Positions 1,543 to 47,410 of a stretch of DNA of 64,000 nt are shown here, piece after piece. The notes under the pieces were generated by a model. The model did not search any database, was not told the origin of the DNA, and worked only from the letters and a program-made list of their open reading frames with translations. The DNA comes from Methanobacteriota archaeon (GTDB taxonomy: Archaea; Thermoplasmatota; Poseidoniia; Poseidoniales; Poseidoniaceae): the NCBI GenBank assembly GCA_011524855.1, contig WTJK01000017.1, positions 13,054 through 77,053 on the forward strand, written 5' to 3'. Numbering within the stretch: position 1 is the first letter of the stretch; every line of letters starts with the position of its first letter. Made by a program: the position numbers and the translations under genes.

Positions 1543-2739
1543 ATGGCAGTGGATGCGCTCGCTGGGGCCCACCCTGATTGGCCAGAGCGGCTGGCCGATT
1601 CACTCGGCTCGGTTCGATGGTCTTCGGTTCTGCAACCGATCGTTGAAAAATTGAAGCAGAACAGGCCGCTCACGGTCGATGATGGCCTGATGTTGTACCA
1701 CCACGCTGACCTCCATGAAGTGGGCCAACTCGCCCACCATGCACGGCTGGCTCGCTTCGGGCAGCGCACCTTCTTCAACGCCAATGTCCACGTCAACCAA
1801 ACCAATGTCTGCGTCCTCGCATGCAAGTTTTGCGCCTTTCGACGAGGCCCAAAAGCCAAGGACGCCTATGCCATGGAGGTTCAGGAATACATCGAGGATG
1901 TCGGCAAGTACGCCCCTCACGTCGATGAGGTTCACTCCGTTGGCGGTCTTCACCCAGAATGGGATGTCCACCACTACGTGGCGATGTTTGAGGGCGTGCG
2001 TGCTTTGCATCCACACGTGAGCCTCAAGGCGCTGACGGCGGTGGAAATCAAACATCTCGCCCAACAATCAGACATCTCAACCAAAGAGGTGCTTCAGCGA
2101 TTGAAGGATGCTGGCCTGACATCCTTGCCCGGCGGGGGTGCAGAGATCCTCGATGATGATGTCCGAGCCCACATTTGCAACGGGAAGGAAAGTTCCGAAG
2201 AGTACCTCCGTATCCACCAAGAGGCCCACGAAATTGGCCTCCCCTCGAATTGTACCATGCTGTTCGGCACCGTGGAATCGCTTGAGCAACGTTTGAGTCA
2301 CATGATTTCCCTTCGTCAGCTTCAATCCACGACCGGGGGATTCCAATGCTTCGTCCCCTATCCCTTCTTACCGGATGCGTCCCGATTGCCCGAAGCTCAA
2401 CTGGCAACGGCAGCAGAAGTTGTCCGCACCATCGCTGTTTCAAGGCTCATGCTCAACAACATTCCCCACATCAAGGCCTACCGCATGAACATCGGCGACC
2501 ACCTTGCCGAATTGGCGCTCCAATTTGGTGCGGATGACATTGACGGGACCGTTCAGAAAGAATCCATCATGCACCTTGCTGGTTCGACGGCACCGTTGGA
2601 CCACGACCGTAACAACCTGGCACGTTTGATCCGTGATGCTGGTGGCGAACCAATCCAACGCGACACGATTTACACCACGTTCACGCCCTATGTGCCGGTG
2701 GATGTGCCGTCCCGAATTTCGCTCCCCATGGCGTCCTGA
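1543..2739 (+). CDS. Radical SAM enzyme of the MqnE/MqnC family (aminofutalosine synthase or cyclic dehypoxanthinyl-futalosine synthase).
   Basis: Motif 'NANVHVNQTNVCVLACKFCAF' carries the Cx3Cx2C cluster typical of MqnC/MqnE/CofH. The gene sits immediately upstream of mqnA and mqnD. Confidence 0.7.
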   Translation: MAVDALAGAHPDWPERLADSLGSVRWSSVLQPIVEKLKQNRPLTVDDGLMLYHHADLHEVGQLAHHARLARFGQRTFFNANVHVNQTNVCVLACKFCAFRRGPKAKDAYAMEVQEYIEDVGKYAPHVDEVHSVGGLHPEWDVHHYVAMFEGVRALHPHVSLKALTAVEIKHLAQQSDISTKEVLQRLKDAGLTSLPGGGAEILDDDVRAHICNGKESSEEYLRIHQEAHEIGLPSNCTMLFGTVESLEQRLSHMISLRQLQSTTGGFQCFVPYPFLPDASRLPEAQLATAAEVVRTIAVSRLMLNNIPHIKAYRMNIGDHLAELALQFGADDIDGTVQKESIMHLAGSTAPLDHDRNNLARLIRDAGGEPIQRDTIYTTFTPYVPVDVPSRISLPMAS

Positions 2740-2750
2740 GGTGTTCACGG

Positions 2751-3542
2751 ATGTCGACGTGGTCAACGACCTTGGGCAGGGTAGCGTTCATCAATTGCGA
2801 CCCGTTGTTCCACGAATTGGACCCTTCCTGGAACGTGCTCGCTGCACCCCCTGCTTGGCTGACAGGTCACGTGCTCCGACGTGATTGCATCGTTGCTCCG
2901 GTACCAGCAGCGGACTATGCCAAGCACCACGATGAACTGGTGCTTCTCCCTGACATCGGTATCGGCTCCGAGGGCGAGGTGGGCAGCGTGCTCTTGTTCG
3001 GAGCACAGCCAATCGAGTCCATGAAAACCATTGCCCTTCCTTCGGATTCTGCGTCGTCCGTGGCGTTGCTCAAACACTTGCTGAAGACGCAGGGTCTTCC
3101 CATGAATTACATCACGACAGGGCCCGATTACGAACTCATGTTGGGCCGTGCGGATGGCGCTCTGCTCATCGGTGACCGCGCATTGGAAGTTGCCAAAGCC
3201 TTCCCCGACATGGTTCGCTTGGACTTGGGTCAAGCGTGGCTGGACCGCCATCAGTTGCCGATGATTTTCGGTGTCTTTGTGGCTCGAAAGGACACGCCCC
3301 TGCACCTTGTTCAAGCCGCTCATCAAGCGCTTCTCGCCAACCTCGAAGGCTTTGAAAACGATTCGGCCAAACGGCACGCCGTGATTGAGTGGTCGATGAC
3401 AAGGTCTGACCTCTCGTTTGAGCGTCTCGACCAGTACTACGGCGAGGTGTTCAACCGATTGAATTCACACCATGTGAAAGGTCTCAAAACCTTCCTCCGT
3501 GAAGCGTGCGAACTGGATGACGAACCCGAGTTTGCATGGTGA
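2751..3542 (+). CDS. mqnA: Chorismate dehydratase MqnA (futalosine pathway).
   Basis: N-terminal 'GRVAFINCDPLFHEL' matches the MqnA signature (I/V-x-x-L-N-C-x-P). Clustered with MqnD and a radical-SAM Mqn enzyme. Confidence 0.7.
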   Translation: MSTWSTTLGRVAFINCDPLFHELDPSWNVLAAPPAWLTGHVLRRDCIVAPVPAADYAKHHDELVLLPDIGIGSEGEVGSVLLFGAQPIESMKTIALPSDSASSVALLKHLLKTQGLPMNYITTGPDYELMLGRADGALLIGDRALEVAKAFPDMVRLDLGQAWLDRHQLPMIFGVFVARKDTPLHLVQAAHQALLANLEGFENDSAKRHAVIEWSMTRSDLSFERLDQYYGEVFNRLNSHHVKGLKTFLREACELDDEPEFAW

Positions 3543-3584
3543 TGAAAACGGTTGGTTCATGAAGGTCGGTTCGGTGGACAAAGC

Positions 3585-4463
3585 ATGGTCGTAGAATTGC
3601 CTTTGGACGAGGACGGAAATAAAATCGTGCGAATTGGCCATAGCCCGGACCCCGACGATGCGTTCATGTTCCACGCCATGACGACGGGCGCCTTTCCTAC
3701 CCCTGGATACACCTTCGTTCATGAACTCCAAGACATCGAGACCTTGAACCACCGTGCGATGAACCAAGACCTCGAAGTGTCAGCGGTCTCCATTCATGCC
3801 TATCCGGAAATCGCCGAGCACTATGCTTTGATGAATTGCGGCGCTTCCATGGGTGAGGGATACGGGCCCATGATCGTGTGCAAACAAGGCGTCACGGAGG
3901 AAGCGGCTCGAGCGGCCACCATCGCCGTGCCCGGCCTCAAAACCAGTGCCTACCTCGGATTGCGCTTGGCATGGGGGGATTGCACGGTTGAGGTTGTGCC
4001 CTTTGACGAGATCATCCCTCGCATTCTTGATGATACGTACCTCTCAGGTTTGATCATTCACGAAGGTCAGTTGACCTACGTCGACCACGATTTGGACGTT
4101 CTCATCGACCTTGGGAAGTGGTGGAACGCCTCGACCGACAACTGGCCCATGCCCCTCGGTGGTAACGTGGTTCGGCGAGACCTGGGCGAACAGGTGATGC
4201 AAGACATCACCCGGTACACCAAGATGAGCATCGAACACGCCATCAATTCACCCGATGATGCCTTGGAGTTTGCCAAAGCCTGGGGGCGAGGAATCGATGA
4301 TGACACCAACAAGGAGTTCGTCGGAATGTACGTGAACGACCGCACCATTGACTACCGGGATGAGGGGCGAGCATCGATCAGGAAATTCATCAACGATGGA
4401 CAAGCCATTGGTATGATTCGACCTGATTTTGACGTCCAGACCATTGACTTCATCGGCGCCTGA
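3585..4463 (+). CDS. mqnD: 1,4-dihydroxy-6-naphthoate synthase MqnD.
   Basis: Motif 'IGHSPDPDDAFMFHAMTTG' matches the MqnD 'GHSPCPNDTFMF' signature. Start is set at an internal ATG (MVVELPL...); an upstream alternative start at 3552 is possible. Confidence 0.75.
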   Translation: MVVELPLDEDGNKIVRIGHSPDPDDAFMFHAMTTGAFPTPGYTFVHELQDIETLNHRAMNQDLEVSAVSIHAYPEIAEHYALMNCGASMGEGYGPMIVCKQGVTEEAARAATIAVPGLKTSAYLGLRLAWGDCTVEVVPFDEIIPRILDDTYLSGLIIHEGQLTYVDHDLDVLIDLGKWWNASTDNWPMPLGGNVVRRDLGEQVMQDITRYTKMSIEHAINSPDDALEFAKAWGRGIDDDTNKEFVGMYVNDRTIDYRDEGRASIRKFINDGQAIGMIRPDFDVQTIDFIGA

Positions 4464-4514
4464 GGTGGGAGCATCGTCAACGCACCGGTACCTCAAGTAA
4501 GTCAATACGGCTCG

Positions 4515-4958
4515 GTGGACCCTGCTCCGCCCCAACCGAAGGGTGACGTTTTGGCATGGCGTACCACGCTCCTCGACGAGTCCTCCCCCATGTTCCAGCG
4601 CATGCGGGCGGTGTTTTCCCTGCGGAATCAGCGGTCTGACGAGGCATGCTTGGCCCTCTGTGACGGTTTCGTCGCGACCAGTGCATTGCTGCGTCATGAA
4701 ATTGCCTACGTACTCGGTCAGATGCAAAACAACGTCGCCCTGCCATCGCTGATCGAGCGACTTGAGGATGCCGACGAGCATGTCATGGTGCGTCACGAAG
4801 CAGCCGAAGCCATGGGGGCCATCGGCGATGTGTCCATCGTCCCTGTGCTGAGAAAGCACGCTCAAGATCCACTGCCAGAAGTATCAGAATCGTGCGATGT
4901 CGCTCTGGATTTACTGAAATGGGTGGCCAGCGCAGAATTTGAAAACGCCGAGTGGTGA
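4515..4958 (+). CDS. Half-length deoxyhypusine hydroxylase (DOHH)-like HEAT-repeat protein with two His-Glu motifs.
   Basis: 'ALLRHEIAYVLGQMQ' and 'MVRHEAAEAMGAIGD' match the DOHH HE-motif repeats. 'FQRMRAVFSLRN' and 'VSESCDVALDLLKW' match DOHH inter-repeat segments. The protein is only 147 aa, about half a eukaryotic DOHH. Confidence 0.55.
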   Translation: MDPAPPQPKGDVLAWRTTLLDESSPMFQRMRAVFSLRNQRSDEACLALCDGFVATSALLRHEIAYVLGQMQNNVALPSLIERLEDADEHVMVRHEAAEAMGAIGDVSIVPVLRKHAQDPLPEVSESCDVALDLLKWVASAEFENAEW

Positions 4959-5018: not shown

Positions 5019-5228
5019 ATGCCACACGAACACGTCCAACTCGCCCAAGCGCCCAACGGTGAACTTGGCCCACGATGTCACACTTGCGGTATGCGTCTCA
5101 CGTTCGGTAACGCTATGGTGGTGGACAAGCACTACATGTGCTGGGAGCACTATGTTGAGGCCACTGGGGCCGATACGGTCACCAAGGTTGCTGCCGCAGA
5201 CGAGCGCTTCTGGATGAAGCAGGACTAA
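5019..5228 (+). CDS. Small hypothetical protein with a putative Cys/His metal site (CxxC...C..H).
   Basis: A 69-aa ORF in an otherwise uncovered gap between the DOHH-like gene and priS. 'RCHTCGMRLTFGNAMVVDKHYMCWEHY' looks like a zinc-ribbon-type motif. Confidence 0.3.
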   Translation: MPHEHVQLAQAPNGELGPRCHTCGMRLTFGNAMVVDKHYMCWEHYVEATGADTVTKVAAADERFWMKQD

Positions 5229-5278: not shown

Positions 5279-6481
5279 TTGTCAGCAGGCTGGGCGAGGT
5301 TTGCACACCGGTTCAGCCAATACTACCGTCATGCCGATTTGTGGTCCCCACCGAGGGTGCGAACGCGAGAATGGATGTTCATCCCGTTCGGCGGCGCACC
5401 CCCCTTGCGTCACAAGGCGTTCTCGGCTGTCAACGACGTGCGCTCCTTTTTGAGCGAACGCGCCATGCATTCCTGTTTCTATTCTACCGCGTATTGGAAA
5501 CGACCGTATGAAATGAAGATGGCAGACAAAGGCTGGCATGGAGCAGACTTGATTTTCGACCTCGACGGCGACCACCTGCCAGGCGTCACGGATCGTGATT
5601 TTCCCGCCATGCTTGAGGTGATTCAAGAGCAGGCATGGACCCTTTGGAACGACTTTCTCCAGCCTGAATTTGGCTTTGAGGAACGTTACCTCCAAGTCAC
5701 GTTTTCAGGCCATCGGGGGTTCCATTTGCACTACCGAGACCCCAAATTCTTTCACCTCGATTCCGAAGCTCGCCGGGAACTTGTTGCTCACATCCGAGGA
5801 GAGGGTGTTGACGTTCAAGGAGGGCTTGCACGATTCAAAGATGCAGATGCGCAAGGGTGGACTCGCCGCTTGCGGTCTGGCATGGGTGACATGGTAGCGA
5901 CCCTCAGCAACATCAACCGTGGCGTTGAAGGTGCGTCAAGCGAATTGAAGCGGTTGGAAGCCTCGCTCAAAGAGCTCCAAGAGCGTGAAGGAAAGACCTC
6001 CCAAACAACCGCTGATTCCATTCGCAAATTGGCAGCACTGGTTGACCACCCCGACCGTTCCAAGCGATTAATGGAGGGTCGTTTCGACCTCCTGTCCAAT
6101 TACCAAGCACTGTTCTTGAATTTGCTCAAGTCGGACGCTTCGGTCGTCCTTGGCTCTGCGGGTGAAACAGATGAGGTGGTGACCATTGATGTGCGGCGTC
6201 AGATCCGTTGGCCATCATCCCTCCACGGCAAATCTGGAATGCGGGTCACGGAATTCCCGTTGGATCGGCTTGACCCCGACAAATCAACCTCATTCAATCC
6301 GTTGAAAGAAGCGTTCGTTCTGGGCCTTGATGAACAGGTGGAAGTGGAATTCACCGTGGATGATGCGGTGGCCCAATTCGGTGACCGCCGAATTGAGACC
6401 AAAGCCGGCCATCGTATCCGAACCCATGAATCGGGTGCCACGTTTTTGGTGATGAAAGGCTGGGCCAACATCGTGCCGTGA
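5279..6481 (+). CDS. priS: DNA primase small (catalytic) subunit PriS.
   Basis: Catalytic motifs 'ADLIFDLDGDH' (DxD) and 'FSGHRGFHLHY' (SGxRG.H), with a PriS-like N-terminus 'FAHRFSQYYRH...REWMFIPFGG...RHKAF'. Confidence 0.75.
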   Translation: MSAGWARFAHRFSQYYRHADLWSPPRVRTREWMFIPFGGAPPLRHKAFSAVNDVRSFLSERAMHSCFYSTAYWKRPYEMKMADKGWHGADLIFDLDGDHLPGVTDRDFPAMLEVIQEQAWTLWNDFLQPEFGFEERYLQVTFSGHRGFHLHYRDPKFFHLDSEARRELVAHIRGEGVDVQGGLARFKDADAQGWTRRLRSGMGDMVATLSNINRGVEGASSELKRLEASLKELQEREGKTSQTTADSIRKLAALVDHPDRSKRLMEGRFDLLSNYQALFLNLLKSDASVVLGSAGETDEVVTIDVRRQIRWPSSLHGKSGMRVTEFPLDRLDPDKSTSFNPLKEAFVLGLDEQVEVEFTVDDAVAQFGDRRIETKAGHRIRTHESGATFLVMKGWANIVP

Positions 6482-6558: not shown

Positions 6559-7542
6559 GTGCGTGAGATGGGGCTCCGTCGTGGCAAGAAATCCAAGAAC
6601 GCAACGAACAACGAATCGTTGCCTCCTGCCCCGCTCCCGATGCCCGGTGAACTGCCACCCATGCCCCTTCCGGGACAAATGCCAGCGCCCTTGCCCGATA
6701 TGCCGCTCCCCCCAGCGGCGAACGGCGCCCCTGAACCCCTTCCACTGCCCGATGCACCCCCCACCGAGGCTGCACCTGCGTCGCTGTCCGAGAAAGTCGA
6801 GTCCTCCGACTACGGAGCCCTCTGGGCCAAGCGCTCGGAAAAGCCCCTCCAACAAATCTACGGCCACATCGATCGAATCAGCAATCAAGAGGCGGGCTCC
6901 CTGCTTGACCGATACGCTGACCGGTTCGGCCATTCGTTGGACCGAGAAATCATCGTGATGCGAAAGGCATCCCTCGAGGAAAAACACGCCGAGGTTCGCG
7001 ACGCCCCAACGGTTGAATTGATCGGCGAAGAAGAACCAGTTGAGGATCTTTCGCCGGCCGAAGAGCTGAAAGCGGTCGAGGACGAACTGCGGCAACTCAA
7101 GCCGCTGTACCAGACGGCCAAGGCCAACGGTGATTCAGCCTCCCTTGCTGAACTCAAACCCGTGCTTCAGGAATTGATGAACCGTCGAAAGGAACTCAAG
7201 GGCGGTCAAACGAGCAGCGCACCGGTCGTGGCCGTGGCCGAGGCTGCAGGCGACAGCGAGATGGACGCTCTCTTCGAACAATTTGTGCATTTGGCAAACG
7301 ATTTGCTCGGCGACCATCTTCCGGAATCCATCGTGACCGAATTCATGAACAGTCCAGGATTTGACTTGCTCAAAACCGTCCACGCTGCACCCACCGAGAC
7401 CACGGACACGACACGTTCAGAATTTTATGCGATGGTGGACGACCTCCTGGGCAACATGTCCGAGGAATCCATCAATGCCTTCGTGGCATCCCCCGATTTC
7501 GACATTTACCGCCAAGTCGGTGAAGCGTACAAAGGAGCGTGA
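6559..7542 (+). CDS. Hypothetical protein with a proline-rich (PxLP/MPLP) N-terminal region and an internal duplicated ~25-aa segment.
   Basis: 'LPPAPLPMPGELPPMPLPGQMPAPLPDMPLPPAANGAPEPLPLPDAPP'. The segments 'LGDHLPESIVTEFMNSPGFDLLKTV' and 'LGNMSEESINAFVASPDFDIYRQV' are near-repeats. The stop overlaps the start of the next gene. Confidence 0.5.
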   Translation: MREMGLRRGKKSKNATNNESLPPAPLPMPGELPPMPLPGQMPAPLPDMPLPPAANGAPEPLPLPDAPPTEAAPASLSEKVESSDYGALWAKRSEKPLQQIYGHIDRISNQEAGSLLDRYADRFGHSLDREIIVMRKASLEEKHAEVRDAPTVELIGEEEPVEDLSPAEELKAVEDELRQLKPLYQTAKANGDSASLAELKPVLQELMNRRKELKGGQTSSAPVVAVAEAAGDSEMDALFEQFVHLANDLLGDHLPESIVTEFMNSPGFDLLKTVHAAPTETTDTTRSEFYAMVDDLLGNMSEESINAFVASPDFDIYRQVGEAYKGA

Positions 7543-8399
7543 AAAGAATGGGATTGCTCGATAAAGCAGCAGCAGCAGGTGGAAACGAAACGGCTGCTGC
7601 GAAGCCGAAAGCTGCCGCAGCGGCAAAGGCAGTCGCCAAGGCAAAACCTGCAGCCAAGGCCGCCAAAGCTGCCAAGGCAGCAAAAGCAGCAAAGGTCAAG
7701 GCACCGCGTGCCCGACCCGCGAGCCTTTCGGCAGATTTTGAACTCGCTTCCAGCATGAATCGCCGAATTTCCTGGTTGGTCAACTTCATCGTGAACTTTG
7801 GTGTGCTTTTCGCTGCGATCTTCATCGCTGCAGGGGACACCGGTGTGGTGACGACCATTCTGTTCGCTGTGAGCGGTGGCATCATCATCATCAACGTGAT
7901 TTTCATTCCCATGAAGTTCAGCCGGAACATCGGTCAATTTGTCTCTCGAACCAAATTTGTCCGTGGTGACGGTAAAAACCCGCTTTTCCTTCACGGAATC
8001 CTGGTGAACTCGACCGGTCTATCTGCTCTGATCGGTGTGATCATGATTGCGACGCAATTCCAAAAGTTGTCCGAGGAAGACAACACCACCGCGATCATCC
8101 TCTTTTCCCTTGGTGCGCTCTTCCTGATTCTTTGGTTCATCGACCGCTTCCTCCGCAACGGCAGCGAAATGACCCAAGGTCTCTACGACCTGCTGTTTGG
8201 GGCCTACTTGGTGAAATACGTGCCGTCCGAGGAGGAGCGCGCGACAGGTGTCTGGGCTCGACTTGAAAACATGGGGAATTTCGGCGACCAACTGCTTGAG
8301 CGTCAAGAAAAGCGTGCTGCCAAAGCGGCCCAAAAAGCCGCAAAGGCGGAAGAAAAGGCGGCGGAGAACGAAGGCTCAAGTGAAGAATCCACCGAGTGA
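7539..8399 (+). CDS. Membrane protein (RDD-like?) with Lys/Ala-repeat N- and C-terminal tails.
   Basis: N-terminus 'AAKPKAAAAAKAVAKAKPAAKAAKAAKAAKAAKVKAPR'. At least three predicted TM helices. C-terminus 'EKRAAKAAQKAAKAEEKAAENE'. GTG start overlaps the upstream stop (GTGA); an ATG alternative lies 9 nt downstream. Confidence 0.5.
   Translation: MKRMGLLDKAAAAGGNETAAAKPKAAAAAKAVAKAKPAAKAAKAAKAAKAAKVKAPRARPASLSADFELASSMNRRISWLVNFIVNFGVLFAAIFIAAGDTGVVTTILFAVSGGIIIINVIFIPMKFSRNIGQFVSRTKFVRGDGKNPLFLHGILVNSTGLSALIGVIMIATQFQKLSEEDNTTAIILFSLGALFLILWFIDRFLRNGSEMTQGLYDLLFGAYLVKYVPSEEERATGVWARLENMGNFGDQLLERQEKRAAKAAQKAAKAEEKAAENEGSSEESTE
7585..7725 (+). repeat. GCN/AAR trinucleotide-rich coding repeat encoding (K/A)n.
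   Basis: A run of gca/gcc/gcg/aag/aaa codons ('gcagccaaggccgccaaagctgccaaggcagcaaaagcagcaaag'). Its mirror gives spurious Ala-rich antisense ORFs. Confidence 0.6.
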
Positions 8400-30075: not shown

Positions 30076-30152
30076 TGGTGGGCTCGGAGAGAATCGAACT
30101 CTCGATCTTTGCCATGTCAAGGCAACGTCATAAACCCCTAGACCACGAGCCC
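30076..30152 (-). tRNA. tRNA-Val (anticodon GAC) with genomically encoded 3' CCA.
   Basis: Reverse complement is GGGCUCGUGGUCUAGGGGUUUAUGACGUUGCCUUGACAUGGCAAAGAUCGAGAGUUCGAUUCUCUCCGAGCCCACCA. It has a 7-bp acceptor stem, GG in the D-loop, anticodon loop UUGACAU and T-loop UUCGAUU. Confidence 0.85.
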
Positions 30153-45922: not shown

Positions 45923-46414
45923 TCAGTACTTGCTCAGGCCGGGGTAGAGAGCTTCAGCCTCTTCCCGCACCGAGTGAGCAACGTTGTCGACCAACTTTTG
46001 GCCAGCGGCGGTGATGCGGCGACCGGCGTAGAGTTGAACCGGACCGTCTTCGCCTTCAACGACCTTGGTGGGGACCTTCTCCACCAAACCAGCATCCTCG
46101 AGTTGCTGGAGGGCCGTGCGGATGATGTGGCGGGATGCCACGCCGGGTGTGTTGGGCATAGCACCGTTGTCCTTCTTGCCGCCAAAGGCCTGTGCAAGAT
46201 GGGTCACGCCAATGGGTCCGCTGCGGGCGATTTTCCGGAGGATAGCACCGGTGCGTGCGTACCACCAGTCTGCTTGCACGGGGGGTCGCTCACGATCCAC
46301 GGCGGTCTTGACGTATCCCGCCCATTCGGGCATGGAGACGGCGTCTTGTTCTGCCATGGCTTTGGCGAGCGCTGGGTTAAACAGGTCAGCGGGGATGTCA
46401 AACACGGTCGTCAT
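45923..46414 (-). CDS. rps19e: Ribosomal protein S19e.
   Basis: 'MTTVFDIPADLFNPALAKAMAE...WWYARTGAILRKIA...GGKKDNGAMPNTPGVASRHIIRTALQQLE' matches S19e. The ORF-track upstream extension is not coding. Confidence 0.85.
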   Translation of the reverse strand: MTTVFDIPADLFNPALAKAMAEQDAVSMPEWAGYVKTAVDRERPPVQADWWYARTGAILRKIARSGPIGVTHLAQAFGGKKDNGAMPNTPGVASRHIIRTALQQLEDAGLVEKVPTKVVEGEDGPVQLYAGRRITAAGQKLVDNVAHSVREEAEALYPGLSKY

Positions 46415-46549
46415 AACGATACACCAAGCAACTTGCCGACCGTCCGCCCCTATATGAAAAGCACGGGTCGTCACGGCCTTCCTTGCGCAGAGGCCAGCGG
46501 TTCCCTGCGATACAAGCCTTCTTGAAACCGGCACGGTTGGTGCGTTTCG

Positions 46550-47410
46550 ATGAAGAAGGCGTTGGCACAGAATCCAAACCTTTTGCGAACCCTGATCGGG
46601 ATGTCGCTCACCCTCATTTTTCTGCTCAGCTACGCCGTCTACGGCGCCACGGTCTCGCCTTCGGTATACATGTACGAAACCGAGCCCACCATCACCGAAC
46701 ACGCAACCAGCGACGACGAAGACAGCATTGAGCGAACGTACGACGACGAAGCCAACACCACCACTTGGGCGTGGCCGGTGACCATGAACGGGAACAACCT
46801 CACGTGGGTTAACGTGACGGCGACGGACCTGTCCAGCGGTTCCGTCGTCCGCATCATCAACGTCGCAAAACTCTACAGTCACGAGTTGCTCGGCAACACC
46901 TACGACCTCGAAAACCCGCTTGAGGAGGAATTCTCATGCGCCGATTTGTGCGACCACATGGCCACGCACGTCCGAGAGCCAGACGACAACGGCGAAGTGC
47001 TGTTCCATGCGCTCACCTCAACGGACCCCGCACGACGGTCCAACGGTTCCGTGTTCGCACAAGACCTGGCAGAGGCCGAAGAAAAAGCTCGTGGACTCAT
47101 CGCGTACGAACACTTCCCGGCCTTGTTGCGTATCGAAATCGTTGAGCAAGGTAACCGGACCACCAATCCGAACATTGAGGTCGAGACCGTGAACGAGGCG
47201 TTCGCAAGTGTGGACGTGTTTTCGGTGGACACCGCCACTGAATTCCTTTGGGCTCTTGCCGCTGTTGTGGGCTGCTTTGCCATGGTGTTGGTTCCGTCCT
47301 TCACCGTTTACTTCGCTGCTCGAGCCAAGGAAAAGCGGGCCGAGGCGAAACTCGTTTCGGATGAACAATCCGTACAGGAGAGCCTCCAACCTTCAACCAC
47401 GGAGACATGA
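46550..47410 (+). CDS. Surface-anchored secreted protein (N-terminal signal/TM, C-terminal TM anchor) rich in N-glycosylation sequons.
   Basis: Signal-like 'LLRTLIGMSLTLIFLLSYAVYGA'. Sequons NTT, NLT, NVT, NRT and NGS. C-terminal TM 'LWALAAVVGCFAMVLVPSFTVYFAA' followed by a basic tail. Confidence 0.5.
   Translation: MKKALAQNPNLLRTLIGMSLTLIFLLSYAVYGATVSPSVYMYETEPTITEHATSDDEDSIERTYDDEANTTTWAWPVTMNGNNLTWVNVTATDLSSGSVVRIINVAKLYSHELLGNTYDLENPLEEEFSCADLCDHMATHVREPDDNGEVLFHALTSTDPARRSNGSVFAQDLAEAEEKARGLIAYEHFPALLRIEIVEQGNRTTNPNIEVETVNEAFASVDVFSVDTATEFLWALAAVVGCFAMVLVPSFTVYFAARAKEKRAEAKLVSDEQSVQESLQPSTTET

What the first reader, a model, noticed from the sequence alone, without database searches (positions are those of the whole stretch)
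4515..4958. Stand-alone half-size deoxyhypusine hydroxylase (DOHH)-like protein in an archaeal context
The 147-aa ORF carries two HEAT-like repeats with His-Glu dyads, 'LLRHEIAYVLGQMQ' and 'MVRHEAAEAMGAIGD'. Flanking segments 'FQRMRAVFSLRN' and 'SESCDVALDLLKW' also match. Together these look like one of the two internally duplicated halves of eukaryotic DOHH, where four HE motifs ligate a di-iron centre. No second half is encoded nearby in any frame. A homodimer of this half-protein could rebuild the four-HE di-iron site. Archaeal aIF5A hypusination chemistry is incompletely understood, and a canonical DOHH is generally reported as missing in archaea. This is therefore a candidate missing or minimal ancestral hydroxylase.
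Basis: partly seen in the sequence, partly recalled or inferred. Interest (0 to 1): 0.7.

Follow-up and report, generated by a model that had tools for sequence, protein, structure and literature searches.

The report
Half-size deoxyhypusine hydroxylase in marine archaea
Marine Group II archaea carry a conserved stand-alone gene matching one half of the eukaryotic enzyme that completes the hypusine modification of translation factor 5A, although the hypusine literature says archaea have no such gene.

Summary
ORF 4515-4958 (+) encodes one four-HEAT-repeat domain with two His-Glu motifs. It matches both halves of human DOHH (PDB 4D4Z, E=2.7e-68). An AlphaFold model superposes on one half at 1.5 Å with 51% identity. 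Generic HEAT/PBS-lyase proteins match far worse.

The window comes from a Poseidoniales (Marine Group II) archaeon. The gene is a conserved single-copy ORF of 159-178 aa in all 80 species-level genomes examined. It always lies between mqnD and a 69-aa ORF followed by primase PriS. dN/dS is about 0.02. No second half exists within 64 kb here or within ±6 kb elsewhere. The true start is probably 14 codons upstream, at 4473.

All residues known to bind iron or substrate in one DOHH half are invariant. The protein is equally similar to N- and C-halves and branches between them, so it is not a truncated C-half.

Published MGII supplements already auto-label it DOHH (K06072). They also list DHS and aIF5A in these genomes, but nobody discusses this.

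Best reading: a homodimeric di-iron deoxyhypusine hydroxylase. Dimerisation, iron binding and activity are untested. Verdict: new variant of a known kind, interest 0.62.

The parts
4473..4958 (+). Probable full coding sequence of the half-size DOHH homologue (161 codons plus TGA stop). Position 4473 is ATC, where the closest relatives have ATG.
   Evidence: Homologues are 159-178 aa and start about 14 codons upstream of VDPAPP. DNA alignment with L001 and L002 shows ATG at the position of the window's ATC. The family HMM aligns from nt 4482. Arm residues S10-P20 are at least 90% conserved in 119 sequences.
4515..4958 (+).
4462..4467 (+). Shine-Dalgarno-like GAGGTG overlapping the mqnD stop codon (TGA 4461-4463), 5 nt upstream of codon 4473.
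   Evidence: Read directly from the sequence. The same TGAGG-N-ATG arrangement is seen in many related loci. Function is inferred.
4491..4532 (+). Conserved N-terminal arm PQVSQYGSVDPAPP. It corresponds to the Y-x-S-V-D-P-A-P-P inter-domain linker motif that precedes the C-half of eukaryotic DOHH.
   Evidence: The motif occurs in 116/119 MGII proteins, in the linker of 62/90 full-length DOHHs, and before the N-half in 0/90.
4680..4727 (+). First His-Glu motif helix SALLRHEIAYVLGQMQ. H61 (4695-4697) aligns to Fe ligands H56/H207. E62 (4698-4700) aligns to substrate-binding E57/E208. G68 (4716-4718) aligns to the substrate-binding Gly (G214 in the C-half).
   Evidence: Alignment to 4d4z; invariant in 119 homologues; residue roles from PMC9117371.
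4785..4829 (+). Second His-Glu motif helix MVRHEAAEAMGAIGD. H94 (4794-4796) and E95 (4797-4799) align to Fe ligands H89/E90 and H240/E241. The spacing from the first motif is 33 residues, as in DOHH.
3552..4463 (+). Upstream neighbour: MqnA/MqnD-family menaquinone (futalosine pathway) gene, in the same frame. It ends 9 nt before codon 4473 and is a conserved synteny partner (context only).
   Evidence: Pfam PF02621; adjacent in 80/80 related loci; labelled mqnD in an MGII MAG annotation.
5019..5228 (+). Downstream conserved 69-aa ORF (CxxC...CxxH) of unknown function (context only).
   Evidence: Present in 79/80 loci; no Pfam, NCBIfam or PDB match.
5279..6481 (+). DNA primase small subunit PriS: an archaeal marker and conserved downstream neighbour (context only).
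   Evidence: present in 78/80 loci.

Best explanation
The gene encodes a single-domain (four HEAT repeat) orthologue of deoxyhypusine hydroxylase. It is a core gene of Marine Group II archaea (Poseidoniales). Each chain supplies the ligand set that one half of eukaryotic DOHH gives to one iron: two His and one Glu (H61, H94, E95 in 147-aa numbering). It also supplies the residues that bind the deoxyhypusine side chain (E62, G68). I infer that two chains associate head to head, as the N- and C-halves of eukaryotic DOHH do, and build a non-haem di-iron centre at the interface. That centre would activate O2 and hydroxylate C2 of deoxyhypusine on aIF5A to give hypusine. The conserved N-terminal arm (SQYGSVDPAPP), which is the inter-domain linker in eukaryotes, probably packs on the partner subunit. 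Shown here: specific homology, fold, conservation of all functional residues, half size, single copy, purifying selection, and the presence of DHS and aIF5A in this aerobic lineage. Inferred: dimerisation, iron binding, substrate and activity. Eukaryotic DOHH is then most simply a duplicated and fused version of such a half-gene.
For: 1. Specific homology. Human DOHH 4d4z matches at E=2.7e-68, and both halves align over the full length of the query. The nearest non-MGII relatives in 1.8 billion representatives are two-domain proteins of about 300-330 aa at 43-52% identity. Those that carry a source name are eukaryotic DOHH or come from eukaryotic transcriptomes.
2. Fold. The AF2 model has pLDDT 89.9. 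Foldseek gives 4d4z TM 0.85-0.87, rmsd 1.5 Å and 51% identity. The next hits are alphaRep proteins at TM 0.68.
3. Functional residues. H, E, G, H and E are invariant in 119 homologues. Their roles come from PMC9117371 and PMC3306375. Of 25 columns that are conserved and identical in both halves of full-length DOHH, 24 are kept.
4. It is a real, selected gene. dN/dS is 0.019 against the closest relative, and synonymous sites are saturated against the others. It is a stand-alone 159-178 aa ORF with fixed synteny in 80/80 genomes, one copy per assembly.
5. No partner half. None is found in the 64-kb window or within ±6 kb in 80 genomes.
6. Pathway context. The 'MGII Core' table of Tully 2019 lists DOHH (K06072) in 119/158 and 72/92 genomes of the two clades, and DHS in 153/158 and 91/92. 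One MAG carries K06072 next to mqnD, DHS next to SAM decarboxylase, and aIF5A. MGII are described as obligate aerobes.
7. Symmetry-compatible sequence. The protein scores equally against the N-half and C-half HMMs: 163.6 vs 162.1 bits.
Against: A single chain has only two of the four His-Glu motifs that define DOHH. From memory only (the source papers could not be retrieved), isolated halves of human DOHH are not reported to be active. Neither DHS nor aIF5A lies near the gene. Its conserved neighbours are menaquinone and primase genes, so context does not point to translation. A divergent second HEAT partner elsewhere in the genome cannot be excluded, because whole genomes could not be scanned. 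The modification state of MGII aIF5A is unknown.
Confidence: 0.6

Rival explanations
1. The gene is a truncated C-terminal half of a eukaryotic DOHH, acquired by horizontal transfer into an MGII ancestor and later adapted. This concerns origin; the function could still be that of a DOHH.
For: Identity to eukaryotic DOHH halves is high, up to 52%. The family was seen here only in Poseidoniales among prokaryotes. The N-terminal arm Y-x-SVDPAPP is shared with the linker and start of C-halves and is absent before N-halves. With the arm included, the MGII HMM scores C-halves higher than N-halves.
Against: On the 130 core columns the MGII proteins score equally against the N-half and C-half HMMs (difference -1.5 ± 1.8 bits), whereas true C-halves differ by +36.5 ± 6.5. 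At discriminating columns the split is 2 N-like to 2 C-like. MGII is closer to both halves (0.99 and 1.08) than the halves are to each other (1.28), and it has the shortest branch. In NJ trees the MGII clade attaches between the N and C clades in 4/4 subsamples and 157/300 bootstraps, and inside C in only 20/300. No eukaryotic half is more than 52% identical, so there is no recent donor.
Confidence: 0.15
2. It is a DOHH-like iron oxygenase that acts on something other than aIF5A. It could be a di-iron dimer, or a monomer using its 2-His-1-carboxylate set as a mononuclear site. One candidate role is linked to the adjacent menaquinone (futalosine) genes.
For: It is adjacent to mqnD in 80/80 genomes and probably translationally coupled to it. 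It is not linked to DHS or aIF5A. One chain carries exactly a His/His/Glu set.
Against: Identity to an enzyme of extreme substrate specificity is 41-52%. The residues assigned to binding the deoxyhypusine side chain (E57/E208 and the Gly equivalents) are invariant. 24 of the 25 columns conserved in both DOHH halves are kept. No HEAT-repeat enzyme is part of the known futalosine pathway (general knowledge). The downstream neighbour is primase, so the synteny is not a functional operon theme.
Confidence: 0.13
3. It is one subunit of a heterodimeric DOHH. The second, more divergent HEAT-repeat subunit is encoded elsewhere in the genome.
For: Eukaryotic DOHH is asymmetric, with N and C halves only 37% identical. 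Whole MGII genomes could not be scanned here.
Against: There is one hit per assembly among 80 genomes. There is no second copy in 64 kb or within ±6 kb. In the held part of one MAG's annotation table, only this gene carries a HEAT/PBS-lyase label. Tully's pangenome assigns a single gene cluster to DOHH. The N/C-equidistant sequence is what a symmetric homodimer would predict.
Confidence: 0.08
4. It is a non-catalytic generic HEAT/PBS-lyase-type repeat scaffold protein, and the DOHH resemblance is only repeat-level similarity.
For: Pfam reports only HEAT_PBS (50.8 bits) and HEAT_2. Prokka, eggNOG and NCBI name it a HEAT-repeat or PBS-lyase protein.
Against: Pfam has no DOHH-specific model. A single domain aligns end to end with DOHH at 129 bits, against 24 bits or less per repeat for alphaRep proteins. 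NCBIfam CpcE scores 22.6 bits against a cutoff of 330. Structural rmsd to DOHH is 1.5 Å, against 2-5 Å at TM 0.68 for generic HEAT proteins. Both His-Glu dyads are invariant.
Confidence: 0.03

Closest known systems
Eukaryotic deoxyhypusine hydroxylase (DOHH / yeast Lia1; human structure PDB 4D4Z; KEGG K06072, EC 1.14.99.29)
   Same: The HEAT-repeat fold is the same: rmsd 1.5 Å and 51% identity to one half. The two His-Glu motifs sit 33 residues apart. The Fe-ligand set (His, His, Glu) and the substrate-binding Glu and Gly are the same. The SVDPAPP linker motif is shared. 24 of the 25 columns conserved in both halves are kept. DHS and IF5A co-occur in the lineage.
   Different: It has one domain of four HEAT repeats (about 161 aa) rather than eight repeats in a pseudo-symmetric dyad (about 300 aa). 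A chain therefore has two His-Glu motifs, not four, and must oligomerise to form a di-iron site. It is equidistant from the N- and C-halves rather than belonging to either. The host is archaeal. No biochemical data exist.
Homodimer versus duplicated-and-fused pairs (retroviral aspartic protease and pepsin; homodimeric and heterodimeric type I photosynthetic reaction centres)
   Same: The evolutionary logic proposed here is the same: an active site lies on a twofold axis between identical subunits in one lineage, and between two diverged, fused or paralogous halves in another (general knowledge; analogy only).
   Different: The folds and chemistry are unrelated, and the homodimer has not been demonstrated here.
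PBS-lyase HEAT-like repeat proteins (Pfam PF03130: CpcE/CpcF, NblB, MTH187, the alphaRep scaffold)
   Same: They share the same repeat type at the Pfam level.
   Different: They lack the paired His-Glu motifs. Similarity is much weaker: CpcE scores 22.6 bits against a cutoff of 330, MTH187 has E=0.012, and alphaRep reaches TM 0.68. Their functions differ.

Membership tests
Deoxyhypusine hydroxylase (DOHH) | Sequence homology specific to DOHH rather than to generic HEAT repeats | tested here: met
   4d4z matches at E=2.7e-68, with 129 and 103 bits per half and full-length alignment. The best non-MGII relatives are two-domain DOHHs at 43-52% identity.
Deoxyhypusine hydroxylase (DOHH) | HEAT-repeat alpha-solenoid fold superposable on a DOHH domain | tested here: met
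   AF2 pLDDT 89.9. Foldseek gives TM 0.85-0.87 and rmsd 1.5 Å to 4d4z_A/B.
Deoxyhypusine hydroxylase (DOHH) | Iron ligands His-His-Glu of a half-site (H56/H89/E90 or H207/H240/E241) | tested here: met
   H61, H94 and E95 align to them and are invariant in 119 homologues.
Deoxyhypusine hydroxylase (DOHH) | Residues that bind the deoxyhypusine side chain (E57/E208 and the Gly of LGQ) | tested here: met
   E62 and G68 are aligned and invariant.
Deoxyhypusine hydroxylase (DOHH) | Eight HEAT repeats in a symmetrical dyad with four His-Glu motifs in one polypeptide | tested here: not met
   There is one four-repeat domain with two His-Glu motifs. The ORF is 159-178 aa in 80 genomes, bounded by stops, with no second half nearby.
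Deoxyhypusine hydroxylase (DOHH) | Binuclear iron centre formed between two HEAT domains (here it would require a homodimer) | not testable with these tools
Deoxyhypusine hydroxylase (DOHH) | O2-dependent hydroxylation of deoxyhypusine on IF5A | not testable with these tools
   This needs biochemistry or proteomics. The host is described as an obligate aerobe.
Deoxyhypusine hydroxylase (DOHH) | Co-occurrence with deoxyhypusine synthase and IF5A in the genome | tested here: met
   They are not in this window. Published MGII annotations list DHS in 153/158 and 91/92 genomes. One MAG carries DHS, aIF5A and the K06072 gene together.
PBS-lyase HEAT-repeat proteins (CpcE/CpcF/NblB type) | Score above the curated family threshold for a phycobiliprotein lyase or NblB model | tested here: not met
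   CpcE scores 22.6 bits against a cutoff of 330, and NblB 19.8 against 300. Only the generic repeat model PF03130 passes.

The most novel reading that the evidence does not exclude
The MGII protein is a living representative of the pre-duplication form of DOHH. It would be a C2-symmetric homodimeric di-iron hydroxylase that fully hypusinates aIF5A in an archaeon. Eukaryotic DOHH would then have arisen by tandem duplication and fusion of such a half-gene, with the N-terminal arm becoming the inter-domain linker. That would be the first archaeal DOHH and would overturn the textbook statement that archaea lack one.
Probability: 0.4. Interest if true: 0.78.

Novelty: new variant of a known kind. 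Interest (0 to 1): 0.62.

Why it matters
Reviews of hypusine biology repeatedly state that no DOHH homologue exists in archaea, even though some archaea contain hypusine. Here there is a clear homologue in one of the most abundant archaeal groups of the surface ocean, core to both of its clades, alongside DHS and aIF5A. If it is active, four things follow.

1. It would be the first archaeal deoxyhypusine hydroxylase, and it predicts that MGII aIF5A carries hypusine.
2. It would be a natural half-enzyme showing how the pseudo-symmetric di-iron HEAT enzyme of eukaryotes arose by duplication and fusion.
3. It would offer a minimal symmetric scaffold of about 160 aa for studying the unusually stable peroxo-diiron intermediate.
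4. It raises a question about gene flow between MGII and the eukaryotic stem, or about loss in other archaea.

It does not solve how Crenarchaeota make hypusine.

Tried and rejected
Model coordinates are not exposed, so ligand geometry could not be measured.
- The AFDB50 fold search, meant to find named half-size homologues outside MGII, was unavailable.
- The genome-contig scan returned only the best 80 of 387 confirmed hits, all Poseidoniales. The taxonomy of the other 307 is unknown.
- The representative search lists only the top 150 hits, which are dominated by two-domain proteins. Other half-size families scoring below about 160 bits would not be visible.
- The Rinke 2019 supplements did not contain the UBA identifiers needed to assign loci to MGIIa or MGIIb. 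The Tully 2019 core table was used instead.
- The original DOHH papers (PMC1324997, PMC1868894) are not held. My recollection that isolated human halves are inactive is therefore unverified.
- A motif scan for the aIF5A loop and Pfam scans of DHS-sized ORFs found neither gene in the window.
- The bacterial promoter and terminator scan was uninformative.
- The 69-aa neighbour has no Pfam, NCBIfam or PDB match.
- Rejected as explanations: a generic HEAT scaffold; a pseudogene or fragment (dN/dS 0.02, conserved length); eukaryotic contamination (fixed archaeal synteny on contigs up to 2 Mb).

Full report
**Observation.** The two His-Glu dyads are H61-E62 (nt 4695-4700) and H94-E95 (nt 4794-4799), 33 residues apart.

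Pfam sees only generic repeats: HEAT_PBS at 50.8 bits and HEAT_2 at 48.3 bits. NCBIfam phycobilin-lyase models score far below threshold, with CpcE at 22.6 bits against a cutoff of 330. Pfam has no DOHH-specific model, so the decisive comparison is with solved structures.

Human DOHH (4d4z) matches at E=2.7e-68. The whole query aligns once to the C-half (129 bits) and once to the N-half (103 bits). Designed alphaRep HEAT proteins reach their totals only by summing repeats of 24 bits or less.

An AlphaFold2 model built on 119 homologues has mean pLDDT 89.9. It superposes on one half of 4d4z with TM 0.85-0.87, rmsd 1.5 Å and 51% identity. The next hits are alphaRep proteins at TM 0.68.

**Organism and family.** The closest database proteins come from Poseidoniales (Marine Group II) MAGs. 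They are 153-177 aa long and 66-94% identical. NCBI names them 'HEAT repeat domain-containing protein' and JGI names them 'deoxyhypusine monooxygenase'.

A scan of one genome per prokaryotic species found 387 confirmed matches. The best 80 are all Poseidoniales contigs, including the MG-II chromosome CM001443.1. One contig is labelled Verrucomicrobiales but has full MGII synteny, so it is probably misbinned. There is one hit per assembly.

In all 80 loci the gene is a stand-alone ORF of 159-178 aa (mode 162), bounded by stop codons, with no second DOHH-like domain within ±6 kb. The 64-kb window likewise has no second copy in any frame.

Synteny is fixed: mqnD, then the half-DOHH, then a 69-aa ORF, then priS. 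This holds in 78-80 of 80 loci.

Selection is strongly purifying. dN/dS is 0.019 against the closest relative (dS 1.43). Synonymous sites are saturated against the rest, while pN stays at 0.09-0.27. The gene is therefore neither a fragment, a pseudogene nor contamination.

**Start codon.** Homologues begin about 14 codons upstream of the reported GTG. They carry a nearly invariant arm, SQYGSVDPAPP. In the window this arm is encoded in frame upstream of 4515.

At the position where L001 and L002 have ATG, the window has ATC (4473-4475). It is preceded by an SD-like GAGGTG that overlaps the mqnD stop codon. Within the eight codons PQVSQYGS, all four differences from L001 are synonymous. The real product is therefore probably 161 aa, starting at 4473. 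The ATC is either a near-cognate start or a sequence error.

**Functional residues.** Reviews assign H56, H89, E90, H207, H240 and E241 of human DOHH to the di-iron centre. They assign E57, E208 and a Gly in each half to binding the deoxyhypusine side chain.

The aligned residues here are H61, H94, E95, E62 and G68. All are invariant in 119 MGII sequences. Of the 25 columns that are at least 80% conserved and identical in both halves of 90 full-length DOHHs, the MGII consensus keeps 24. The exception is a conservative Leu to Met change.

**Relationship to the two eukaryotic halves.** The nearest non-MGII relatives are two-domain proteins of about 300-330 aa at 43-52% identity. Those that carry a source name are eukaryotic.

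With the N-terminal arm included, C-halves score higher against the MGII HMM. The arm motif itself occurs in the linker of 62/90 full-length proteins and never before the N-half.

On the 130 shared core columns, however, the MGII proteins are exactly intermediate:
- They score 163.6 bits against an N-half HMM and 162.1 against a C-half HMM, a difference of -1.5 ± 1.8. True N-halves differ by -31.3 ± 8.4 and true C-halves by +36.5 ± 6.5.
- Discriminating columns split 2 N-like to 2 C-like.
- Mean distances are 1.08 (MG-N) and 0.99 (MG-C), against 1.28 (N-C). MGII has the shortest branch of the three: 0.41, against 0.67 and 0.58.

In NJ trees MGII is monophyletic in 196/200 bootstraps. It attaches on the branch between the N and C clades in 4/4 taxon subsamples and in 157/300 bootstraps, and inside C in only 20/300.

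This argues against a recently truncated C-half. It fits a lineage that separated at or before the internal duplication. It also fits a protein held at the 'average' of both halves by homodimer symmetry. The tree is unrooted and only 130 columns long, so the direction of any transfer between MGII and stem eukaryotes remains open.

**Pathway context and prior knowledge.** Neither an aIF5A hypusine loop nor a DHS gene is in the window.

Published MGII annotations supply the context. Supplementary Data 10 of Tully 2019 has an 'MGII Core' sheet, where core means present in at least 70% of genomes of both MGIIa and MGIIb. It lists 'DOHH; deoxyhypusine monooxygenase' in 119/158 and 72/92 genomes, and DHS in 153/158 and 91/92.

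In the supplement to Damashek 2021, MAG SIMO Bin 19-2 has a 160-aa K06072 gene overlapping mqnD by 9 nt, with a non-zero transcript value. The same MAG has DHS next to SAM decarboxylase, and aIF5A. MGII are described as obligate aerobes, which suits an O2-dependent enzyme.

Neither paper's listed main-text counts include 'hypusine'. Four further full-text searches found no paper linking DOHH to MGII, Asgard or a half-size form. Reviews from 2012, 2016, 2020 and 2021 still state that no DOHH homologue or orthologue is known in archaea. The label therefore exists in automatic annotation, but the architecture and its implications have not been described in the searchable literature.

**Mechanism.** My best explanation, at confidence 0.6, is as follows. 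Two identical four-HEAT-repeat chains pair as the N- and C-domains of eukaryotic DOHH do. Each gives two His and one Glu to one iron of a binuclear centre. The enzyme then hydroxylates deoxyhypusine on aIF5A.

Homology, fold, ligand conservation, selection, half size and pathway co-occurrence are shown. Dimerisation, metal binding, substrate and activity are inferred and could not be tested here.

The rivals are:
- HGT of a truncated C-half (confidence 0.15; this is an origin scenario and does not exclude the same function).
- A DOHH-like oxygenase acting on another substrate, possibly as a mononuclear site (0.13).
- A heterodimer with an unseen partner (0.08).
- A non-catalytic HEAT scaffold (0.03).

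**Verdict.** It is a new variant (single-domain, stand-alone) of a known enzyme family, found in a domain of life where that family is reported absent. It is already auto-annotated but undiscussed. It does not explain hypusine in Crenarchaeota. Interest is 0.62. The most novel reading, a living pre-duplication homodimeric DOHH and the first archaeal DOHH, gets probability about 0.4 and interest 0.78 if true.

Noticed in passing
window 4461-4475: The conserved ATG start of this gene family is ATC in the window (4473-4475). It is preceded by an SD-like GAGGTG (4462-4467) that overlaps the in-frame TGA stop of mqnD. The first canonical start is the GTG 14 codons downstream, inside the conserved SVDPAPP arm. 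This is either a near-cognate start or a sequencing or strain variant.
   Followed up: partly
window 5019-5228 (+): A 69-aa ORF with a CxxC...CxxH pattern lies between the half-DOHH and PriS. It is conserved at 59-94% identity in 79/80 MGII loci. It has no Pfam, NCBIfam or PDB match, and its function is unknown.
   Followed up: partly
L069 (NZEQ01000006.1, 54.6 kb): This contig is deposited as 'Verrucomicrobiales bacterium isolate ARS100'. It carries the complete MGII synteny block (P-ATPase, mqnE/C, mqnA, mqnD, half-DOHH, orf69, PriS) at 71-86% identity, so it is almost certainly a misbinned Poseidoniales contig.
   Followed up: partly
window 6559-7542 (+) and 7539-8399 (+): Two adjacent ORFs of 327 and 286 aa lie downstream of PriS. 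They are conserved in 64-69 of 80 MGII loci but have no significant Pfam or NCBIfam family; the only hit is a sub-threshold Peptidase_U4 match.
   Followed up: no
window 1543-4463 (+): A futalosine-pathway menaquinone cluster lies directly upstream. It has a radical-SAM gene whose best match is MqnE (423 bits, just under the 434.55 cutoff; MqnC scores 336) and two PF02621 genes of MqnA/MqnD type. In some MGII lineages an insertion of about 2.3 kb separates mqnA from mqnD (for example L026, L046, L054).
   Followed up: no
window 45923-46882 (-): This 319-aa ORF call has its ribosomal protein S19e domain only at residues 158-306. Either the ORF is over-extended at the N-terminus or S19e carries an unusual extension.
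   Followed up: no
window 30076-30152 (-): A single tRNA-Val(GAC) is the only Rfam/ARAGORN RNA gene in the 64 kb.
   Followed up: no
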